Assembly (NCBI GenBank): GCA_031281515.1 | Contig: JAITFF010000021.1 | Coordinates: forward strand, 1-35,746 | Source: Holosporales bacterium | GTDB taxonomy: Bacteria; Pseudomonadota; Alphaproteobacteria; RUG11792 | Direction of reading: 5' to 3' | DNA length: 35,746 nt | Shown: positions 2,813 through 20,213 of the stretch, piece by piece | How positions within the stretch are numbered: the first letter of the stretch is position 1 | How the letters are laid out: each line of letters starts with the position of its first letter | Notes under the pieces: generated by a model | What the model was told of the DNA's origin: nothing | Database searches by the model: none | Seen by the model: the letters and a program-made list of their open reading frames with translations, nothing else | Program-made: the position numbers and the translations under genes

Positions 2813-3586
2813 ATGAGAATTAAAATAATCATTGAATACGATGGGACCGGGTTCGCCGGTTGGCAAAGGCAGGACAACTCCAATAATACAGTTCAGGAGA
2901 CCCTGGAAAAGGCAATCGAAAAAGTCTTTGATTATCGAGAAAGAATTACCCTCTACGGAGCTGGGCGGACGGATGCCGGTGTACACGCGACGGGACAGGT
3001 TGCTCATTTTGATATCCTATCGGATCTACTCGTCGAAAGGTGGATGAGAAATGCTCATAAACTAGTCAGAGCAGTGAACTTCTATCTAATAGAAACTGGG
3101 GTCGTGGTCCTAGGGGCTGACATCGTTCCCGATGACTTTCATGCCAGATTTTCAGCGAAAATGAGACATTACGAGTATATAATCCTTAACCGGGAAACGT
3201 CCTCAGTAATCGTCGCTCGCCATTCATGGCACGTCTCCAAAACACTCGACATACTGCCAATGCGGAAGGCCGCCGAATATTTTGTTGGGAAACACAATTT
3301 ATCAGCCTTTCGATCGGCCGAATGTTCCGCCAATAACACGGAACGAAATATTTCGTCGGTAGTCGTAGACAAAATAGGGCAACTCATCACTATATCGGTT
3401 TCGGCGCGGTCGTTTCTTCATAATCAGGTACGTATCATGGTCGGGACTCTCCGAATGATTGGAGCCGGGGAAAAAGAGCCGGAAATTATACCGGTTCTCC
3501 TTGAAAGCGGTGACAGAAGGAATGCCGGACCAACGGCGCCAGCCTGTGGACTGTATTTGAGGAGGATCGATTATGAATCTCCATAG
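2813..3586 (+). CDS. truA: tRNA pseudouridine(38-40) synthase TruA
   Basis: 257 aa. MRIKIIIEYDGTGFAGWQRQ and the catalytic GAGRTDAGVHATGQVAHF motif. Confidence 0.95.
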   Translation: MRIKIIIEYDGTGFAGWQRQDNSNNTVQETLEKAIEKVFDYRERITLYGAGRTDAGVHATGQVAHFDILSDLLVERWMRNAHKLVRAVNFYLIETGVVVLGADIVPDDFHARFSAKMRHYEYIILNRETSSVIVARHSWHVSKTLDILPMRKAAEYFVGKHNLSAFRSAECSANNTERNISSVVVDKIGQLITISVSARSFLHNQVRIMVGTLRMIGAGEKEPEIIPVLLESGDRRNAGPTAPACGLYLRRIDYESP

Positions 3587-4657: not shown

Positions 4658-5527
4658 TCATAGCTTTCCTCCCGAGGCCCAACCTCCGGTTAGTTGCCCT
4701 GGCTGGGCTTGCACAACTGGTGCAGGGGCAGGATACTGCGAGCGTGCCCCAACCCAAGGCGGGGGAGGCGTGGAGGCAGCTACCGCAGTCCTCTGTAGCG
4801 GAGACGAGCTATATGGATTACCTGCGGGATATCCGGTAGCTCTTGGTTGTGGGGAAAGGGTAGTACCACCCTGTTGCGAAGGGACGACTCCCCACCCACC
4901 CGTTCCAGGAATGGCTTGTGCTTGCCCTAATGGGGTTCTGGTCGCTACAGTTGTGGGACCTGATTGCGATTGCCACTGAGCTGAAGCAGGGGGTTGAGGA
5001 GCTCCCCACTGATTTCCCGCATATCCTGCCTGAGAATTGAAAGTAGAGAGAGTGGGGTAAACCGGAGCCAGCGGCGCCCTTCCAGTTGCAGCTGGAGGGG
5101 GCACAGCTCCCAGAAATTGGGTCGTAGGTGTTGCCGGAAGGGCGGCTACTGCCCCTCCGGGAGGTAATCCCGGCGGAGGAGGCGCTACTACTCCTGTGTT
5201 GTAGCCCCCGACCTGATTTACGGGGACAGGGGCAGCTGGAGGTAAACCCACTCCATTTGCCTGGTGCATAAGGGCGGCCACTTGAGCTTCAGCGCTGGCC
5301 TGACCGACCTTAATCTGATTCGCCACCGCTGCCCCTTGCTGCTTTAGTTCCCATATCTTTTGAAAGGCTTCTGTCCCTTGTTTGGTGAAGTCTCCTACTG
5401 CTTTGCCTAATTGGCTGAAGTCGAAGGCTTCGGTTACTGGAGAGCTTAGCGCCGAGATGGACACTACCGCCCACGCGGCCTTGCAAACAATTCTCTTGGT
5501 TGCAACAGTCAATTGGATTGAGGCCAT
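4658..5527 (-). CDS. secreted Pro/Gly/Gln/Ala-rich low-complexity protein (unknown function)
   Basis: 289-aa ORF. Signal-like N-terminus (KAAWAVVSISALSSPVTEA), a short helical region, then about 200 aa of P/G/Q/A-rich sequence. The segment is visibly more GC-rich than its flanks. The opposite-strand ORF 4551..4979 looks like a shadow. Confidence 0.6.
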   Translation of the reverse strand: MASIQLTVATKRIVCKAAWAVVSISALSSPVTEAFDFSQLGKAVGDFTKQGTEAFQKIWELKQQGAAVANQIKVGQASAEAQVAALMHQANGVGLPPAAPVPVNQVGGYNTGVVAPPPPGLPPGGAVAALPATPTTQFLGAVPPPAATGRAPLAPVYPTLSTFNSQAGYAGNQWGAPQPPASAQWQSQSGPTTVATRTPLGQAQAIPGTGGWGVVPSQQGGTTLSPQPRATGYPAGNPYSSSPLQRTAVAASTPPPPWVGARSQYPAPAPVVQAQPGQLTGGWASGGKL

Positions 5528-5624
5528 ACTTCCCCCGTTATCGAAATATCGATTTACTTTTGCTCTAAACGCTACTTCGATTGTACGGGGGAGTGGATTA
5601 ATTAATTGTTAACTATATTGTTGA

Positions 5625-5798
5625 TTACTTGTGCTTAACTGCTTTTTGTTCAGAAAAACAGCGGCGTTCCTGGTATTCACTTTGTTTTCCTTTATTAAAG
5701 GCCGACGTCGGGCGGTAATATCCCATAACTCGAGTCCAGACCTCGCATACTGTCCTACCTTCATTCTTAATCTCGATAACTTCTTTCCTATTATCCAT
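5625..5798 (-). CDS. glycyl-radical C-terminal segment of anaerobic RNR (NrdD), encoded as a separate 57-codon ORF in the +1 frame
   Basis: My own translation gives MDNRKEVIEIKNEGRTVCEVWTRVMGYYRPTSAFNKGKQSEYQERRCFSEQKAVKHK*. CEVWTRVMGYYRP...FNKGK..E is the NrdD glycyl-radical signature (RVxGY) plus the last Zn-site Cys. The ATG (5798-5796) overlaps the nrdD stop (ATGGATAA). It falls below the 60-aa cut-off of the ORF track. Confidence 0.75.
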   Translation of the reverse strand: MDNRKEVIEIKNEGRTVCEVWTRVMGYYRPTSAFNKGKQSEYQERRCFSEQKAVKHK

Positions 5799-7830
5799 TG
5801 GCTACCTCCTTCTCTCCAAGTACTCTCGCTGCCAGAAACTGTTGTCTCTTGAGTTCTTCGTCGCACTTCGGGCAGTACCTATGTTCCCCCCGCAAATATC
5901 CGTGTCTCGGACAAATTGAGAACGTCGGAGTTATTGTTATATATGGTATTTTATATTTTGTCAAGACCCGTCGTACCAATTCCTTACAGACCGAATAATC
6001 TGAGACTCGTTCCCCAAGATATAGATGAATAACGGTTCCGCCCGTGTATTTCCTCTGTAATTCCTCCTGGTGATCCAGCGCTTCGAACAAATCTTCTGTA
6101 TATGCGACAGGCAATTGGGACGAATTCGTGTAATACGGCGCCTCTTTCGGACCGGCTTGAATGATATCGGGATATCTCCGGGCGTCCTCTTTCGCGAATC
6201 GATACATACACCCCTCCGCCGGCGTTGCCTCCAGATTGTACAGATGTCCAGTCTCTACCTGGAATTCGACGAGCCTCTCCCTGATGTGATCCAATATTCT
6301 CAGGGCCATTTCTTTTCCATCCGGAGCTGCTATGTCGATTACATCATTCGTAAAGTTCCGAATCATTTCATTTAAGCCATTAACTCCAATCGTTGAGAAG
6401 TGATTCTTGAAGGTTCCGAGGTATCGCTTGGTAAAGGGATACAAGCCGTATTCCATCAGCCTCGCCACTACTTTCCTCTTAATTTCCAGGCTATTCTTTG
6501 CCAGTTTCAGAAGTTCATCTAAATGAACGAGTAGCCCAGCCTCATCCTTTTTATGTAGGTAACCAAGTCTGGCGCAATTTATCGTTACGACTCCGATCGA
6601 ACCGGTCTGTTCAGCAGATCCGAACAGGCTATTCCCTCGTTTCAATAGCTCTCTCAAATCGAGCTGCAGTCTACAGCACATCGAGCGAATCATGTTAGGG
6701 CTGAGGTCAGAGTTTATAAAATTCTGGAAATATGGAATTCCATACTTTGCCGTCATTTCGAATAATATATCCACATTCTTTCCATCCCAGTCAAAATCTT
6801 TGGAGATATTGTAGGTAGGAATTGGAAACGTAAAAACCCGGCCACTTCTGTCTCCTCTGGTCATGACCTCAATGTACGCCTTATTGATCATGTCCATTTC
6901 TTTCTGGAGAGTACCATACGTAAAATCCAGTTCTTCCCCGCCGACTATGGGGTGTTCATCTTTGAGATCCTCCGGGCAAACCCAATCGAACGTAAGATTG
7001 GTAAATGGTGTTTGAGTTCCCCATCGAGTCGGAACATTCAGGTTATAGATGAATGATTGCATCTCCTGATAAACCTGCTTATACGTCAGATTATCGATCC
7101 TGACGAACGGAGCCATATATGTATCGAATGAACTGAAGGCCTGAGCTCCAGCCCATTCGTTTTGCAAGGTCCCCAGAAAATTCACAATCTGAGACAGGGC
7201 GGTCGATAAGTGTCTCGCGGGTGATGCTTCAGCCTTCCCGCTGACTCCATTAAATCCCTCTTGAACGAGCATTCTCAAGGACCAGCCAGCGCAGTACCCG
7301 GAGAGCATATCTAAATCGTGGATATGCATAAATCCATTGATATGCGCTTCCGATATTTTCGATGTATAGATCCTATTTAACCAGTAATTTGCGATGACCT
7401 TCCCAGATAGATTCAGGATGAGTCCACCCAATGAATACCCTAGGTTCGCATTAGCTTTGACTCTCCAATCGAGTTGATCAATGTAATCGTCCACGCTCGA
7501 AACGGCATTGACGAATGACTGGTGCTCGGCCCTTAATTTTGCATGTTGCTCTCTGTAAAGGATGTAAGCCTTCGCCGTCGTTACGTATCCATGCTCGATG
7601 AGGACTCTTTCGACTATATCCTGTATATCCTCGATACTCGGTGCTGATTTGGGATACTTCTTCGCGAGGAGGGATGTCACCTTGAAGGCAAGCATTCTGG
7701 CCTCTCCGACATCAAATTCATTCGTCGCACTCGCCGCTCCGGCAATCGCTTTCGTTATTTTTTCTGTATCAAATGGAGCAAACGTTCCATCTCTCTTAAT
7801 TACAAAATTTAAAATCGCATCATTCGCCAT
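5791..7830 (-). CDS. nrdD: anaerobic ribonucleoside-triphosphate reductase (class III RNR) NrdD, lacking the glycyl-radical tail
   Basis: 679 aa. N-terminal ATP-cone (VIKRDGTFAPFDTEKITKAI), class III core, and C-terminal ITITPTFSICPRHGYLRGEHRYCPKCDEE Zn-ribbon. The ORF stops about 20 codons later, before any RVxGY motif. Confidence 0.9.
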   Translation of the reverse strand: MANDAILNFVIKRDGTFAPFDTEKITKAIAGAASATNEFDVGEARMLAFKVTSLLAKKYPKSAPSIEDIQDIVERVLIEHGYVTTAKAYILYREQHAKLRAEHQSFVNAVSSVDDYIDQLDWRVKANANLGYSLGGLILNLSGKVIANYWLNRIYTSKISEAHINGFMHIHDLDMLSGYCAGWSLRMLVQEGFNGVSGKAEASPARHLSTALSQIVNFLGTLQNEWAGAQAFSSFDTYMAPFVRIDNLTYKQVYQEMQSFIYNLNVPTRWGTQTPFTNLTFDWVCPEDLKDEHPIVGGEELDFTYGTLQKEMDMINKAYIEVMTRGDRSGRVFTFPIPTYNISKDFDWDGKNVDILFEMTAKYGIPYFQNFINSDLSPNMIRSMCCRLQLDLRELLKRGNSLFGSAEQTGSIGVVTINCARLGYLHKKDEAGLLVHLDELLKLAKNSLEIKRKVVARLMEYGLYPFTKRYLGTFKNHFSTIGVNGLNEMIRNFTNDVIDIAAPDGKEMALRILDHIRERLVEFQVETGHLYNLEATPAEGCMYRFAKEDARRYPDIIQAGPKEAPYYTNSSQLPVAYTEDLFEALDHQEELQRKYTGGTVIHLYLGERVSDYSVCKELVRRVLTKYKIPYITITPTFSICPRHGYLRGEHRYCPKCDEELKRQQFLAARVLGEKEVANG

Positions 7831-9400
7831 TTGCTAACTCCTTATTCATTAGATTCACAGTATTGCCAACTCCGTAAAGATGGATAAAGGACCCCATTTT
7901 CGGACCGCTCTCAGAGCCGAACAAGAAACCATACAACGTTTTGAACCAGCTCCTTATATCATCTTCGAAAAATCTCTTCCCAACCTCGAAAACTTTGGTC
8001 TGAAAATCATCGGCGCTAGCATGATGATCTAATTCTTCGAGTTCATCTCGTAATTCGGTAATTGCCCTCCTTTGCAAATCATCCGGAACTATAAACTTTC
8101 TGGTATTCGCTACGAAATCTTCATAATACGTGACCGCGAATTTGACCATTTTCTTAGTGAAATCCATTGTCTCACTGGATCCACTGCCATCAGCGATATA
8201 TTTCTTCACAAATTCCATCAGAACATTTTCATCCGCCGTACTGCACGCCTGTACTAAATTCAGAAGCATCGAGAATTTCGGGCAATTTGAAAGATGGGGT
8301 GGATTTCCATCGTGAATATGAAACACTGGGCTATCTGGATTTTCACCAGTATTTTCAGATTTATGAAAAGCCTCAATGGAATCTATATAATCATCCATGG
8401 CGCTCGGTATAACGTCAAAATATAGACGTTTTGCACGCTTCGGAGATTGATACATATAGTATGCTAGGCTTTCGTGTGGAGAATATTTCAACCACTCATC
8501 CATCGAAATTCCGTTTCCCTTTGATTTAGAAATTTTTTTCCCGTCCTCATCGAGGAAAAGCTCATACGTCAAATTTTCTGGCGGCCTTCCTCCGATAATA
8601 TTGCAAATCTTCGAAGACAGCTTGAAAGAGTCGATGAGATCTTTCCCATTCATTTCATAGTCTACTCCGAAGGCGACCCACCGCATTCCCCAATCGGCCT
8701 TCCATTGTAATTTACAGTGGCCATCAAGAACAGAGACCTCTTCGAGATTACCGGTTTCTGGATCTGCGTATACTATTGTACGGCTATCTAGATGCGTCTC
8801 GATGATCGGGACCTGCAGGACTTTTCCAGTCCTCGGGCAAATCGGAAGAAACGGACAATACGTCCTTTGGCGCTCTTCTCTCAGAGATGGCAGCATGACA
8901 CTCATAATTTCATCATAATGTTCCAGTATCTTCGATAGACATTCATTAAAAGCTCCAGATTTATACATTTCTGTCGAACTTTTGAATTCATACTTAAATC
9001 CAAATGAATCGAGAAACCTTCTCAGCATGGCATTGTTATGATGGGCGAAGCTTTCATATTGACCAAATGGATCTGGTATGGAGGTTAGTGGCCTCTCCAG
9101 ATTGGCCTCGAGCTGCTCTCGATTCGGAACGTTTGTCGGGACTTTTCTCAGGCCATCCATATCATCTGAAAAAACGAATAATTTTGCTGGGATATCCGAC
9201 AACTTCCTGAATGCCTGCATGACGAATGTCGTCCTCAAAACTTCTCCGAAGGTACCGATGTGCGGAAGTCCGGACGGCCCATATCCCGTCTCCAAAATCA
9301 CACAATCCTTTCCGGGAACAGCCCCGAGGCGCCCGATAATCTTCCGTGCTTCTTCGAATGGCCAAGACTTGGCGATATCAAGATGATTTCTACAAGACAT
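7820..9400 (-). CDS. lysK: lysine--tRNA ligase, class I
   Basis: 526 aa. The N-terminus WPFEEARKI...ETGYGPSGLPHIGTFGEVLRT (class I HIGH-type motif) and KISKSKGNG (KMSKS) match class I LysRS. Its stop overlaps the nrdD start by 11 nt. Confidence 0.92.
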   Translation of the reverse strand: MSCRNHLDIAKSWPFEEARKIIGRLGAVPGKDCVILETGYGPSGLPHIGTFGEVLRTTFVMQAFRKLSDIPAKLFVFSDDMDGLRKVPTNVPNREQLEANLERPLTSIPDPFGQYESFAHHNNAMLRRFLDSFGFKYEFKSSTEMYKSGAFNECLSKILEHYDEIMSVMLPSLREERQRTYCPFLPICPRTGKVLQVPIIETHLDSRTIVYADPETGNLEEVSVLDGHCKLQWKADWGMRWVAFGVDYEMNGKDLIDSFKLSSKICNIIGGRPPENLTYELFLDEDGKKISKSKGNGISMDEWLKYSPHESLAYYMYQSPKRAKRLYFDVIPSAMDDYIDSIEAFHKSENTGENPDSPVFHIHDGNPPHLSNCPKFSMLLNLVQACSTADENVLMEFVKKYIADGSGSSETMDFTKKMVKFAVTYYEDFVANTRKFIVPDDLQRRAITELRDELEELDHHASADDFQTKVFEVGKRFFEDDIRSWFKTLYGFLFGSESGPKMGSFIHLYGVGNTVNLMNKELANGE

Positions 9401-18201: not shown

Positions 18202-18810
18202 TTACTGCAAGAAGTCCCAATCTTGATTAAATGGATCCGACAAATGAGATAAAGGAAATTCAGTGGTTGTTGAGTCCTGATCTTGTGGAGGATTATGTTG
18301 TGCTGACTGTGGAACCGCTCTTGCGAATTGTGTAGGAACTTGGGCCTGCGGTTCCGTTGATCTAGACGCCATCCATCGGTGCTGGTATGGCCCAATGATA
18401 TGCTCTCTTATATCTCCCACTAATCGGAACATCCCAAACCTTTTCTGCAACATTGTTTGAATTCCTCGTAAAGGAGCACCTCTTTGCATAGCTTGTCTAG
18501 CTGCATTGATCTCTTCGTCTGTCCAGGGAGTCTTATGATCGAGGTCTGGATTCAGGTAGCATTTAAAACGTTCTCGGCATTGTCTAGGATTCCGATTTTC
18601 CATGTCCCTAGCTATTATTGTCCAATCAACTTGAACAGAAGTTGTCTCCTGGTAACGTCTTACTAGTTCCACCAGTCGTGCGTCCTCTTCAGTGGAAAAC
18701 CTGCGGTGGCAAGTATTATCGCTCTGCCCTGCTTCTGTAACTCCAGGCCCACTGATTACTAGCATCGCTAAACAAATTCCGAGGCATAATGGATTTTTCA
18801 ATCTCATCAT
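18202..18810 (-). CDS. signal-peptide-bearing Myb/SANT (R2R3-like) domain protein, eukaryote-like
   Basis: 202 aa. GGAGG lies 5 nt upstream of the ATG. Signal-like MMRLKNPLCLGICLAMLVISGPGVTEA. The Myb repeat RFSTEEDARLVELVRRYQ..VDWTIIARDMENRNPRQCRERFKCYLNPDLDHKTPWTDEE matches the ...QCRERW.N.LNP...K..WT.EED consensus. Confidence 0.7.
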   Translation of the reverse strand: MMRLKNPLCLGICLAMLVISGPGVTEAGQSDNTCHRRFSTEEDARLVELVRRYQETTSVQVDWTIIARDMENRNPRQCRERFKCYLNPDLDHKTPWTDEEINAARQAMQRGAPLRGIQTMLQKRFGMFRLVGDIREHIIGPYQHRWMASRSTEPQAQVPTQFARAVPQSAQHNPPQDQDSTTTEFPLSHLSDPFNQDWDFLQ

Positions 18811-19025: not shown

Positions 19026-20213
19026 ATGTTAGCCAATTTTTTCAAAAATTACATAACCGGTAGAGTCGGAGATTCCGGATCTTCATTGGTTTCTTATCGT
19101 ACCGCTCGAACCGATTCGTCGATGGATTATGAAGACATGTCGGATACAGGTTACAAAAAAAATGTCGTCGTTTACCGCTGCGTTCATATGATCGCGAGAA
19201 CAATCGCATCGGTCAACTGGATCATGCGAAAAATGAATGAATCTCACGAAATTGATGAAATTATATATAAGCATGAAATACTAGAGCTAATCGAGCGCCC
19301 AAATTCAAATCAGTATAGAGCGACCTTTATGGAGGCCGCCGTTTCGTATCTCATGCTTTCTGGGAATTGCTATATCATGGCCCTTCGAGATGCCAATGAT
19401 GGTGGCAAACCCATCGAACTACATCTTCTGCGCCCAGACAGAGTCAAAATTATTCCGGGCAAAAGCTCAATCCCAGAGGGGTATGAATATGTCGTCGGAA
19501 ACGATCGGCGTATTTTTGAAGTTGATCCCGAGAATGGGGCATCCGATATCTTACACATAAAACTGTTTAATCCAGTTGATGATTGGTATGGAATGAGCCC
19601 AGTCGAAGCCGTCCTGGGATCGATTAGCCAGCATAATGCTATCGCTCAACAGAACATATCATTCTTACAAAATGGTGGTCGTCCATCTGGAGCATTAATG
19701 TACAACTCTTCACTCGATCATCAAAAGCGAAACGACCTCAAAAATGATTTACGTAGTCTTTATGAAGGAGGAAGAAATGCTGGGAAAATACTACTTTTAG
19801 AAGGGAATTTTGAATGGAAAGAAATGGGGCTCTCTCCAAAGGATCTCGATTTTATATCTGGGAAAGAGCTAGCAGCCAAGGAAATAGCAATGGCCTTTGG
19901 AGTTCCTCCGATTTTGATCGGATTTATGGCGGACGCCACTTTCTCTAACTACAAGGAAGCCAGGTATAATTTCTGGGAGGAAACGATTCTGCCGGTTCTG
20001 AACATCCTATCCGGCGAATTATCTAATTGGTTTCAAATCTTATTCAATACGGATCTCACGTTCTGGTACGACCTCGATTCGATTCCTGCCCTTTCGAAGC
20101 GCAGGGAATCAGAATGGAACAAGATCAGTAGCGCAGAATTCCTGACGATTAACGAGAAAAGGGAGGCTTTCGGATATCCTCCTATCGAAAATTTGGAAAC
20201 TTCCCGCGACTGA
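19026..20213 (+). CDS. phage portal protein, HK97 family (GTA-like, orphan)
   Basis: 395 aa with an SD (GGAGGA) upstream. Layout and motifs typical of the HK97/GTA portal (YRCV..IA....SV.W; LLR PDRV; GMSPVEA; FLQNGGRPSGAL; LEGNFEWKEMGLSPKDLDF; EIAMAFGVPP). Confidence 0.88.
   Translation: MLANFFKNYITGRVGDSGSSLVSYRTARTDSSMDYEDMSDTGYKKNVVVYRCVHMIARTIASVNWIMRKMNESHEIDEIIYKHEILELIERPNSNQYRATFMEAAVSYLMLSGNCYIMALRDANDGGKPIELHLLRPDRVKIIPGKSSIPEGYEYVVGNDRRIFEVDPENGASDILHIKLFNPVDDWYGMSPVEAVLGSISQHNAIAQQNISFLQNGGRPSGALMYNSSLDHQKRNDLKNDLRSLYEGGRNAGKILLLEGNFEWKEMGLSPKDLDFISGKELAAKEIAMAFGVPPILIGFMADATFSNYKEARYNFWEETILPVLNILSGELSNWFQILFNTDLTFWYDLDSIPALSKRRESEWNKISSAEFLTINEKREAFGYPPIENLETSRD

What the first reader, a model, noticed from the sequence alone, without database searches (positions are those of the whole stretch)
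5625..5830. nrdD is split: the glycyl-radical motif and fourth Zn-site cysteine lie in a separate, overlapping 57-codon ORF (+1 frame)
Seen: the 679-codon nrdD ORF ends (TAA 5793-5791) about 20 codons after ...ICPRHGYLRGEHRYCPKCDEE, without the catalytically essential glycyl-radical motif. In the +1 frame an ATG (5798-5796, overlap ATGGATAA) opens a 57-codon ORF: MDNRKEVIEIKNEGRTVCEVWTRVMGYYRPTSAFNKGKQSEYQERRCFSE.... This is exactly the missing NrdD tail (C-E-V-w-T-R-V-m-G-Y-y-R-P...N.GK..E). The +1 frame is closed by TAG immediately upstream of that ATG, so any join would have to occur within about 8 nt. The ORF track lists only a wrong-frame 85-aa ORF here. Established: class III RNR needs the Gly radical on the same C-terminal domain, and separately encoded glycyl-radical 'spare part' proteins exist for PFL (GrcA/YfiD). 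Alternatives (inference): (a) sequencing or indel error, (b) recent pseudogenisation, (c) a programmed +1 frameshift, (d) a genuine two-piece NrdD with translational coupling. Option (d) would be unusual.
Basis: partly seen in the sequence, partly recalled or inferred. Interest (0 to 1): 0.65.

Follow-up and report, generated by a model that had tools for sequence, protein, structure and literature searches.

The report
Two-gene anaerobic ribonucleotide reductase (split NrdD)
The anaerobic ribonucleotide reductase gene here is not broken: in a large clade of bacteria, a few archaea and phages, the enzyme's radical-carrying glycine sits on a separate protein of about 57 residues, an arrangement I could not find described in the literature.

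Summary
It is not an error, a pseudogene or a frameshift site.

- **Assembly:** an independent assembly of the source run reproduces the junction without differences.
- **Conservation:** of 81 related loci (window included), 65 show the same split between the Zn ribbon and the Gly loop. All three relative frames occur and spacers run from -32 to +400 nt. Most tails have their own Shine-Dalgarno plus ATG.
- **Selection:** body and tail are both under purifying selection.
- **Independence of the small gene:** it can be unlinked from nrdD, separated from it by an inserted gene, or fused to a thioredoxin-like domain. About 70 phage contigs that have no nrdD carry it alone.
- **Family size:** a profile of the small protein finds at least 150 distinct clusters, all of small proteins.
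- **Zn site:** the "fourth Zn cysteine" claim is not supported. The Zn site (C-x2-H…C-x2-C) lies entirely in the large ORF.

Best reading: a two-subunit class III RNR, made of a catalytic body and a translationally coupled small glycyl-radical subunit. Assembly and activity are inferred, not shown, and no nrdG lies in the window. I found no published description.

The parts
5791..7830 (-). nrdD 'body' ORF, 679 aa: ATP-cone, catalytic alpha/beta barrel, Zn ribbon and a 20-aa C-terminal extension. It has no glycyl-radical loop.
   Evidence: NF006126 scores 1117 bits (cut-off 548) over profile positions 4-652/684. Pfam ATP-cone and NRDD match.
7540..7806 (-). ATP-cone domain (residues 9-97).
   Evidence: Pfam PF03477, E 1.2e-24.
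6670..6681 (-). Finger-loop motif M384-C385-C386-R387 (double-cysteine, 'MCCR' type).
   Evidence: Read directly from the sequence. The motif is invariant in all 81 loci and in alignment A2. PMC9669993 links the double-Cys motif to formate-independent, thioredoxin-type reduction.
5863..5913 (-). Zn-ribbon ligands C640, H643, C653 and C656 (CPRHGYLRGEHRYCPKC), all within the body.
   Evidence: C640, H643, C653 and C656 are invariant in A2. A Cys/His/Cys/Cys Zn site has been solved in TmNrdD.
5794..5853 (-). Body C-terminal extension LKRQQFLAARVLGEKEVANG, absent from short-linker fused NrdDs.
   Evidence: It is predicted helical (H654-676), with confidence falling towards its end.
5805..5811 (-). 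Shine-Dalgarno AAGGAGG for the small ORF, 6 nt upstream of its ATG.
   Evidence: An ATG with an SD of at least 4 nt precedes the tail in 53 of 65 split loci, against 8.7% of background ATGs.
5791..5798 (-). ATGGATAA: the small ORF's start codon overlaps the last codons and the stop of the body. This is the geometry of translational coupling.
   Evidence: L001 has the same 8-nt overlap and L003 has a 19-nt gap.
5625..5798 (-). Small ORF, 57 aa: a free-standing glycyl-radical subunit ('tail'), made of a variable 15-aa head and the conserved Gly-loop domain.
5709..5732 (-). Glycyl-radical motif R23-V-M-G26-Y-Y-R-P30. The Gly26 codon GGA is at 5723-5721.
   Evidence: R23, V24, M25 and R29 are invariant and G26 is present in 79 of 80 small homologues. 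The AF2 model puts the hairpin at E698-703/E706-709 with pLDDT 80-89.
7820..9400 (-). Class I lysyl-tRNA synthetase gene. Its stop overlaps the nrdD start by 11 nt, so lysS, the nrdD body and the tail are probably one transcript.
   Evidence: The scan found no terminator-like site on this strand between the genes.

Best explanation
This is a naturally two-gene class III (anaerobic) ribonucleotide reductase.

The large ORF encodes everything except the radical site: the ATP-cone, the catalytic barrel with the MCCR thiyl loop, and a Cys3His Zn ribbon. The 57-codon ORF encodes a separate small subunit that carries the radical glycine (Gly26).

Both are probably on one mRNA with lysS. The small ORF is translated from its own strong Shine-Dalgarno. 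Its ATG overlaps the body's stop (ATGGATAA), which would couple the two translations and keep the amounts of the two proteins similar.

Inferred steps:
1. The small subunit docks non-covalently, inserting its CEVWTRVMGYYRP hairpin into the barrel next to Cys385/386, as the C-terminal domain does in one-piece NrdD.
2. The activase NrdG, encoded elsewhere in this genome, makes the glycyl radical on the small chain.
3. Catalysis then proceeds as in thioredoxin-type (MCCR) NrdD.

A plausible but unproven advantage: oxygen cleaves glycyl-radical proteins at the glycine. In this design only a protein of about 6.6 kDa is destroyed and has to be replaced, so the spare part is built in.
For: SHOWN
1. 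The two ORFs together cover the NrdD profile end to end.
2. An independent assembly gives the same sequence.
3. The split is clade-wide. Of 81 loci, 65 are split, 12 are fused and 4 have no tail nearby. The split loci come from Holosporales, alpha-, beta- and gamma-proteobacteria, Actinobacteria, CPR, Spirochaetes and two archaea. They include the isolates Iodobacter arcticus and Pusillimonas sp..
4. Relative frames are 26/20/19, spacers run from -32 to +400 nt and all three stop codons are used. An ATG with an SD precedes the tail in 53 of 65 split loci, against an 8.7% background. The 12 exceptions are four Gammaproteobacteria-labelled MAGs, five CPR, one Bdellovibrionales, one Rhodospirillaceae and one archaeon; 10 of them form a single subclade of the tree.
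5. Both pieces are under purifying selection.
6. All 80 database hits to the small ORF are proteins of 37-87 aa. A profile search of 1.84 billion representatives gives 4728 hits, and the best 150 clusters are all 54-152 aa.
7. The 45 closest relatives of the body (72-100% identity) all stop at 666-693 aa. Fused relatives appear only at 63-67% identity.
8. The usual operon order is body, tail, nrdG.
9. The tail behaves as an autonomous gene.
   - It is unlinked from the body in Holosporales contigs L081 and L083.
   - A 23S-IVS-protein gene separates it from the body in L046.
   - It is fused to a thioredoxin/glutaredoxin-like domain in spirochaete-type loci.
   - It stands alone on about 70 phage contigs, next to lysis or integrase genes. 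None of these has an MCCRLQLD-type body anywhere on the contig.
10. AlphaFold2 on body plus tail, run as one chain with an alignment, gives pLDDT 83.6 and a confident Gly hairpin. Only the junction is uncertain. The best PDB matches are class III RNRs.

CONTEXT
- The glycyl-radical domain of one-piece NrdD is highly mobile (PMC11226230).
- YfiD shows that a separate glycyl-radical chain can serve a GRE barrel (PMC8683613).
Against: - There is no biochemical, proteomic or transcript evidence for this locus or for any split NrdD. No RNA runs were found.
- No nrdG lies in the 35.7-kb window or within the ~4-kb flanks fetched for the Holosporales relatives. The activase in this organism is therefore assumed.
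- The structure model was run as a single chain and its alignment contained fused homologues, so the docking largely restates homology. Residues 678-684 have pLDDT below 50, and no confident contact between the body extension and the tail head was obtained.
- The oxygen-repair rationale rests only on analogy and on the mobility of the small gene.
Confidence: 0.85

Rival explanations
1. Sequencing or assembly indel: the real gene is one continuous ORF.
For: The contig comes from a metagenome at modest depth (about 7-9x). Only contigs could be laid on it, not raw reads.
Against: Logan's independent assembly is identical over 5400-6400. Relative to the profile the junction carries about 33 extra residues, not a 1-nt shift. 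The same architecture occurs in 64 other loci, with different frames and spacers, and in isolate genomes.
Confidence: 0.01
2. Recent pseudogenisation of nrdD, with the small ORF as a decaying remnant.
For: No nrdG is found nearby. Holosporales are host-associated, and such genomes often lose genes.
Against: Synonymous sites are saturated (pS > 0.8) between the window and L001 or L003, yet the body is 81-87% identical and the Gly-loop core is unchanged. There are no other lesions. The SD and ATG are preserved. dN/dS is well below 1 for both pieces in closer pairs.
Confidence: 0.02
3. Programmed +1 ribosomal frameshift (or read-through or hopping) at GGA-UAA makes a single fused NrdD. The ATG is incidental.
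For: In the window and in L001 the tail frame is +1 and a +1 slip at the stop would join the frames. An SD-like sequence lies upstream, as in prfB.
Against: - GGA/GGC followed by a stop is not a slippery context. The SD spacing (6 nt to the ATG) is optimal for initiation.
- L003 has a 19-nt gap, and frames across the clade are 26/20/19 with spacers up to 400 nt.
- Some genomes have the tail gene unlinked from the body or separated from it by another gene.
- Gene-60-type hopping to the next GGA would land out of the tail's frame (read from the sequence).
Confidence: 0.03
4. A GrcA/YfiD-type accessory 'spare part': the small protein only rescues oxygen-damaged one-piece NrdD encoded elsewhere. 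The truncated body here is a non-functional paralogue.
For: Stand-alone copies exist on phages and at unlinked sites. YfiD is a precedent.
Against: The body is under strong purifying selection and keeps every catalytic motif. In most loci the body, the tail and nrdG form one operon with no one-piece nrdD in it. The 45 nearest relatives of the body are all truncated in the same way. Whole genomes were not examined.
Confidence: 0.05
5. The same two-subunit enzyme, but the fission is selectively neutral. A stop and a start arose in a long, tolerant linker, with no oxygen-repair or regulatory benefit.
For: In fused relatives the linker between the Zn ribbon and the Gly loop varies from 4 to 48 residues. 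Long-linker fused forms keep both flanking elements, so the site tolerates almost anything. Fused subclades are nested among split ones in the NJ tree.
Against: The split persists across very deep divergence and many transfers. The small gene has been recruited independently by phages and fused to a thioredoxin-like domain, which suggests that it has value as a separate module. None of this is decisive.
Confidence: 0.35

Closest known systems
One-piece class III RNR (NrdD) of the NF006126/PRK08270 type, with an MCCR finger loop ('NrdD2'-like, thioredoxin-dependent as in N. bacilliformis). Nearest solved structure by sequence: T. maritima NrdD, 4COI/4U3E.
   Same: ATP-cone, barrel, MCCR thiyl loop, Cys/His/Cys/Cys Zn ribbon, RVMGY glycyl loop and the NxGK...E...R tail are shared. 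Relatives are 63-67% identical.
   Different: The polypeptide is broken between the Zn ribbon and the Gly loop. About 20 residues are added to the body's end and about 15 to the small protein's start, and the Gly loop is a separately initiated protein.
GrcA/YfiD (and phage T4 Y06I): autonomous glycyl-radical 'spare part' for pyruvate formate-lyase.
   Same: It is a small free-standing protein that duplicates the C-terminal glycyl-radical domain of a GRE and works in trans on the barrel (PMC8683613). The T4 homologue parallels the phage-borne copies seen here; the T4 case is from my own knowledge and was not checked.
   Different: It belongs to a different family: the tail hits Pfam NRDD only and not the PFL-type Gly_radical domain. 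GrcA backs up a PFL that has its own glycine, whereas the body here has none, so the small protein appears to be obligatory.
Split class II RNR NrdJa/NrdJb of Pseudomonas aeruginosa.
   Same: An RNR catalytic chain is split near its C-terminus into two co-encoded polypeptides, both of which are required (PMC4520616).
   Different: It is a different class. NrdJb carries the redox-shuttle function, not the radical site. [quoted passage not shown]
Phage Aeh1 'genes-in-pieces' NrdA, split by the homing endonuclease MobE.
   Same: The fragments acquire C- and N-terminal extensions at the break and assemble into an active enzyme (cited in bioRxiv 10.1101/2022.08.31.505936).
   Different: It is class I and the break is caused by a resident mobile endonuclease gene. 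Of the split loci here, the only intervening gene seen is a 23S-IVS protein gene in L046, the one long spacer whose ORFs were inspected.

Membership tests
Class III RNR catalytic subunit (NrdD) | Sequence membership: a curated equivalog or Pfam model scored above its cut-off. | tested here: met
   The body scores 1117 bits on NF006126 (cut-off 548) and 476 bits on TIGR02487 (cut-off 326). Pfam NRDD gives E 2e-175.
Class III RNR catalytic subunit (NrdD) | Thiyl-radical finger loop cysteine. | tested here: met
   M384-C385-C386-R387 is invariant in 96 relatives.
Class III RNR catalytic subunit (NrdD) | Zn ribbon between the last barrel strand and the Gly loop. | tested here: met
   C640-x2-H643-x9-C653-x2-C656 is invariant. 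It is the same ligand type as the solved TmNrdD site. Metal binding itself was not tested.
Class III RNR catalytic subunit (NrdD) | The glycyl-radical loop (RVxGY) lies on the same polypeptide as the barrel. | tested here: not met
   The body ends 20 residues after the Zn ribbon. The motif is in the separate 57-aa ORF. This is the point of difference.
Class III RNR catalytic subunit (NrdD) | A cognate radical-SAM activase NrdG is present. | tested here: inconclusive
   None was found in the 35.7-kb window. The only radical-SAM ORF there is MiaB/RimO-like. nrdG follows the tail in most of the 68 loci that have an NrdG hit. The rest of this genome was not available.
Class III RNR catalytic subunit (NrdD) | Glycyl radical formation and NTP reduction. 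| not testable with these tools
   This needs anaerobic reconstitution, EPR and activity assays.
GrcA/YfiD autonomous glycyl-radical cofactor | Homology to the PFL C-terminal Gly_radical domain. | tested here: not met
   In Pfam the small ORF hits only NRDD. In NCBIfam it hits only NrdD models.
GrcA/YfiD autonomous glycyl-radical cofactor | It backs up a full-length GRE that has its own radical glycine. | tested here: not met
   The adjacent body has no Gly loop, and neither do its 45 closest relatives. A one-piece NrdD elsewhere in the genome cannot be excluded.
Programmed +1 frameshift gene (prfB-like) | A conserved slippery or hungry-codon site with a fixed frame relation between the two ORFs in relatives. 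| tested here: not met
   Frames are 26/20/19 and spacers run from -32 to +400 nt. The junction differs even among the three closest relatives.
Split intein / protein trans-splicing | Intein blocks at the break (about 100 or more extra residues in total) and a conserved nucleophile at the C-extein +1 position. | tested here: not met
   Only about 20 + 15 extra residues are present. The tail heads vary, with no invariant residue before R15.
Split RNR (NrdJa/NrdJb type) | Homology to class II NrdJ; the second chain carries the C-terminal redox cysteines. | tested here: not met
   Both pieces are class III. The similarity is one of concept only.

The most novel reading that the evidence does not exclude
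The small protein is an exchangeable, mobile 'radical cartridge'. It would be the first glycyl-radical enzyme whose radical site is obligatorily on a separate, replaceable subunit.

- Cells would replace only this 6-7 kDa chain after oxygen damage.
- Temperate phages of Sutterella/Parasutterella and of gut Alphaproteobacteria carry their own copy, in the moron position next to lysis or integrase genes. This copy would load the host's NrdD body and keep dNTP synthesis running.
- In spirochaete-type systems the same subunit also brings the reductant, as a fused thioredoxin-like domain.
Probability: 0.35. Interest if true: 0.9.

Novelty: new variant of a known kind. Interest (0 to 1): 0.8.

Why it matters
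- **Enzymology:** in the glycyl-radical enzymes described in the reviews and papers I read, the radical glycine is on the catalytic chain. The known exception is the GrcA/YfiD back-up for PFL. A large and phylogenetically wide clade of class III RNRs that always carries the glycine on a separate small protein would change that picture.
- **Experimental use:** such an enzyme would be a natural system for studying how the glycyl-radical domain leaves the barrel to meet the activase. It would also give a direct test of the idea that oxygen-damaged radical sites can be swapped.
- **Annotation:** thousands of 'truncated' nrdD genes and 55-70-aa 'hypothetical' or mis-sized 'anaerobic ribonucleoside-triphosphate reductase' ORFs, including PHROG 4132 ('unknown function'), could be named. 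Split nrdD genes should not be scored as pseudogenes in endosymbiont, gut and CPR genomes.
- **Phage biology:** the stand-alone phage copies suggest a new kind of auxiliary metabolic gene.

Tried and rejected
- **Single-sequence AlphaFold2** of the concatenated body and tail was uninformative (pLDDT 37.9).
- **Docking by paired helices.** I considered that the body's C-terminal extension and the tail's N-terminal head form a helical hairpin or coiled coil. The spirochaete versions look heptad-like. For the window's protein, however, the alignment-based model gives a helix for the body extension only and low confidence for the tail head. The idea is left as untested.
- **Read pile-up** was not possible. 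Only Logan contigs are served for the source run, and no RNA runs were found.
- **Wei et al. 2014** (N. bacilliformis NrdD) is not held in the library.
- **Seven literature searches** found no description of a split NrdD. Neither did the 2026 GRE review or the RNR reviews.
- **Gene-60-type hopping** is rejected on frame grounds.
- **GenBank phage genomes** gave only two weak hits to the tail. The phage observation therefore rests on uncultivated IMG/VR contigs.
- **The viral body scan** with window-derived peptide patterns missed known fused viral nrdD genes. I replaced it with a scan for the invariant MCCRLQLD motif. That scan missed 1 of 10 known bodies (L112).
Full report
**Observation**

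- A 679-aa ORF, 5791..7830(-), ends with TAA at 5793-5791, 20 residues after ...YCPKCDEE.
- A 57-aa ORF, 5625..5798(-), opens in the +1 frame at ATG 5798-5796, so the two overlap as ATGGATAA.
- TAG at 5804-5802 closes that frame one codon before the ATG.

The two ORFs tile the NrdD models.
- NCBIfam NF006126 matches positions 4-652/684 in the large ORF (1117 bits, cut-off 548) and 649-683/684 in the small one.
- Pfam NRDD matches 2-532 and 532-561 of 562.

About 33 residues at the junction have no counterpart in the profile or in T. maritima NrdD: 18 at the end of the body and 15 at the start of the small ORF. The break is therefore not a one-base slip inside conserved sequence.

A canonical Shine-Dalgarno (AAGGAGG, 5811-5805) lies 6 nt before the small ORF's ATG.

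An independent Logan assembly of the source run, a termite-gut metagenome, reproduces 5400-6400 without a single difference.

**The split is conserved, not a lesion**

All 80 database hits to the 57-aa ORF are themselves proteins of 37-87 aa.

I fetched 80 genomic loci that encode relatives of the large ORF and classified them together with the window.
- 65 have the Gly-loop in a separate downstream ORF, 12 are one-piece and 4 have no tail within 4 kb.
- Relative reading frames are 26, 20 and 19. Spacers run from a 32-nt overlap to 400 nt, and all three stop codons end the body.
- An ATG preceded by at least 4 nt of AGGAGG opens the tail in 53 of 65 split loci, against 8.7% of background ATGs. 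The 12 exceptions are four Gammaproteobacteria-labelled MAGs, five CPR, one Bdellovibrionales, one Rhodospirillaceae and one archaeon; 10 of them form a single subclade of the tree.
- Even the three closest relatives differ at the junction. The window and L001 have the 8-nt overlap, and L003 has a 19-nt gap.

Split loci come from many lineages:
- Holosporales;
- alpha-, beta- and gamma-proteobacteria, including the isolates Iodobacter arcticus and Pusillimonas sp.;
- Actinobacteria, CPR phyla and Spirochaetes;
- two archaea.

In a neighbour-joining tree of the bodies the split state fills whole clades, with a few fused subclades nested in or outside them.

Other measures agree.
- Synonymous sites are saturated between the window and L001 or L003 while the Gly-loop core is unchanged. 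In closer pairs dN/dS is 0.05-0.29 for the tail and 0.02-0.09 for the body.
- A search with body plus tail concatenated shows that the 45 nearest relatives (72-100% identity) all stop at 666-693 aa. One-piece relatives of 700-755 aa appear only at 63-67% identity.
- A profile of 80 small proteins searched against 1.84 billion cluster representatives gives 4728 hits at E ≤ 1e-3. The best 150 clusters are all proteins of 54-152 aa.

Together these results exclude sequencing error and recent decay. They also exclude a conserved frameshift or read-through site.

**Anatomy of the break**

One-piece relatives read CPxHGY..GE...CPxC, then a linker, then (C/T)EVW(S/T)R(V/I)xGY.RP...N.GK..E..R.
- The linker varies from 4 to 48 residues.
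- Long-linker fused forms keep both a K/A/E-rich helix after the ribbon and an 'IxLxDxERQxCEVW' element before the loop.

Split forms are cut within this variable linker. The body keeps a median of 19 extra residues, and the tail has a median of 24 residues before RxxGY.

The Zn ligands (C640, H643, C653, C656) are all in the body and invariant. [quoted passage not shown] The small ORF's Cys18 is Thr in several fused relatives.

All 81 bodies carry the double-cysteine MCCR finger loop. The literature links this motif to formate-independent, thioredoxin-type reduction (PMC9669993).

**The small gene is autonomous**

- In most relatives the order is body, tail, nrdG.
- In Holosporales contigs L081 and L083 the tail gene sits alone among housekeeping genes, with no nrdD within 5 kb.
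- Conversely, four bodies have no tail within 4 kb.
- In L046 a 23S-rRNA-IVS-protein gene (PF05635, E 6e-30) lies between body and tail.
- In spirochaete, Termititenax and Methanosarcinales loci the separate tail protein is 170-180 aa. It has an N-terminal helix, the Gly loop and a C-terminal CPxC domain. For two spirochaete/Treponema proteins that domain gives weak glutaredoxin and thioredoxin Pfam hits; the Methanosarcinales protein (motif CDKC) gave none.

**Phage copies**

In IMG/VR, 294 stretches encode tail relatives. Among the best 80 contigs:
- 7 are one-piece nrdD followed by nrdG;
- 1 is split with the tail adjacent to the body;
- 2 have the body downstream of the tail;
- about 70 have a stand-alone tail ORF with no body and no nrdG within 3 kb.

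None of those roughly 70 contigs contains the invariant MCCRLQLD coding motif anywhere. That scan found 9 of the 10 known bodies.

The context is clearly phage (PHROGs):
- holin, endolysin, spanin, then the tail (L130);
- endolysin, then the tail, then integrase (L097);
- tail fibre, then the tail, then helicase (L101).

The viral copies are 56-87% identical (most above 65%) to the tails of hosts with a split NrdD, most often Parasutterella/Sutterella and gut Alphaproteobacteria. They fall in PHROG 4132, 'unknown function'.

**Structure**

AlphaFold2 on body plus tail as one chain, with an alignment of fused relatives and bodies, gives mean pLDDT 83.6 and pTM 0.79.
- The body extension is helical (654-676).
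- The junction (678-684) has pLDDT below 50.
- The tail from about residue 695 is confident (80-89), with a hairpin at 698-703/706-709 bearing Gly705 (Gly26 of the tail).

Foldseek's best matches are class III RNRs: 9D3X, 8P2C and 4U3E, at E 1e-28 to 1e-30.

Because fused homologues were in the alignment, the model shows compatibility with the canonical fold. It is not independent evidence of docking.

**Mechanism proposed**

Shown:
- two selected ORFs;
- independent initiation signals;
- coupling geometry;
- a complete set of catalytic motifs divided between two chains.

Inferred:
- non-covalent assembly with the hairpin in the barrel;
- radical generation on the small chain by NrdG, which is not in this window;
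- thioredoxin-type turnover.

Speculative: because oxygen cleaves glycyl-radical proteins at the glycine, a separate 6.6-kDa radical subunit would make repair cheap.
- The mobility of the gene is consistent with this, as are the precedents of YfiD (PMC8683613) and the highly dynamic glycyl-radical domain of one-piece NrdD (PMC11226230). None of this proves it.
- Neutral fission in a tolerant linker remains a serious alternative for why the split exists.

**Novelty**

Seven full-text searches and targeted reading found no mention of a split NrdD or of a stand-alone NrdD glycyl-radical protein. The reading covered the 2026 GRE review, RNR evolution papers and the P. copri and T. maritima NrdD papers.

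Databases do hold these ORFs, labelled 'anaerobic ribonucleoside-triphosphate reductase' or 'hypothetical'.

The library does not cover subscription journals, so prior description elsewhere cannot be excluded.

**Verdict**

- The Zn-cysteine detail is wrong.
- Function as a two-subunit enzyme is very likely but untested.

Noticed in passing
L063:6050-6574, L066:5355-5870, L067:6056-6583, L069:6060-6602, L071:6049-6585, L076:6067-6609, L077:4310-4855, L079:6083-6448: In Spirochaetes, Treponema, Termititenax and one Methanosarcinales locus the separate tail protein is 170-180 aa. It has an N-terminal heptad-like helix, the RIVGYYR Gly loop and a C-terminal CPxC domain. For the two spirochaete/Treponema proteins scanned that domain gives weak glutaredoxin/thioredoxin Pfam hits (E 1.5e-4 to 2e-3); the Methanosarcinales protein (motif CDKC) gave none. 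A radical subunit fused to a likely reductant fits the MCCR (thioredoxin-type) bodies.
   Followed up: partly
L084-L163 (IMG/VR contigs), e.g. L130:3001-3171, L097:2992-3207, L101:about 2983-3138: About 70 phage contigs carry a stand-alone NrdD-type glycyl-radical small ORF next to lysis, integrase or helicase genes. They have no nrdD body or nrdG nearby and no MCCRLQLD motif anywhere on the contig. The copies are 56-87% identical (most above 65%) to tails of split-NrdD hosts, most often Parasutterella/Sutterella and gut Alphaproteobacteria. They match PHROG 4132, 'unknown function'.
   Followed up: yes
L081:5001-5204 and L083:5001-5177: In some Holosporales genomes the tail gene is unlinked from nrdD. 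In L081 it lies between a CDP-alcohol phosphatidyltransferase gene and grpE/cysS. In L083 it lies between xseA and bacA. Conversely L002, L009, L029 and L062 have a body with no tail within 4 kb.
   Followed up: yes
L046:3733-4095: A 120-aa 23S rRNA-intervening-sequence protein gene (PF05635, E 6e-30) is inserted between the nrdD body and the tail in a Peregrinibacteria MAG.
   Followed up: yes
P0016 (58 aa; homologue of window 5625-5798): One small-subunit homologue has Ser in place of the radical Gly (RVMSYYRP). It could be an error, an inactive copy or a non-glycyl radical site. In the representative search P0016 stands for its 50%-identity cluster.
   Followed up: no
Window 5625-5660 (tail C-terminus), alignment A1, and body C-termini of P0088, P0093, P0098, P0101, P0110, P0113, P0119: After the ER.xF motif the tails are often Cys-rich: at least 2 Cys in 51 of 80, with endings such as CGCSK, CCCRK and CACACAAE. 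About a third of the Holosporales bodies examined end in a Cys pair (CxC, CC or CxxC). This recalls the C-terminal redox-shuttle cysteines of class I and II RNRs. In the window the tail has only Cys47 and the body extension has none.
   Followed up: partly
L169, L170, L178-L180, L189, L191, L192 (viral nrdD loci): Several viral nrdD matches span 2.4-2.9 kb for about 570-660 aligned residues. This implies insertions of roughly 120-400 codons inside the gene, possibly inteins, introns or endonuclease genes. On the contigs of L137/L138 the small tail ORF lies about 2.7 kb upstream of such a body.
   Followed up: no
P0161, P0168, P0141, P0170, P0128 (fused relatives): Some one-piece NrdDs have linkers of 38-48 residues between the Zn ribbon and the Gly loop. 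They keep both elements that flank the break in split forms. They are either precursors of the fission or products of re-fusion.
   Followed up: partly
window 7820-7830: The class I lysyl-tRNA synthetase gene (7820-9400, minus strand) overlaps the nrdD start by 11 nt. The scan found no terminator-like site on this strand between lysS, nrdD and the tail. An unusual lysS-nrdD operon is implied.
   Followed up: no
window 18202-18810, 19026-20213, 677-1678, 4658-5527: Other genes in the window:
- a Myb-like DNA-binding protein (eukaryote-like domain);
- a phage portal protein gene, also seen about 4 kb from the unlinked tail in L083;
- a weakly leucine-rich-repeat protein;
- a 289-aa Pro/Ala/Gly-rich protein with no Pfam hit, immediately downstream of the tail.

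These fit a host-associated Holosporales genome.
   Followed up: no
L019:5978-6143: In the isolate Iodobacter arcticus the 166-nt spacer between body and tail looks internally repetitive by eye (CACAGAG/CTCTGTG-type words in both orientations). It may be a REP-like element or a regulatory structure.
   Followed up: no
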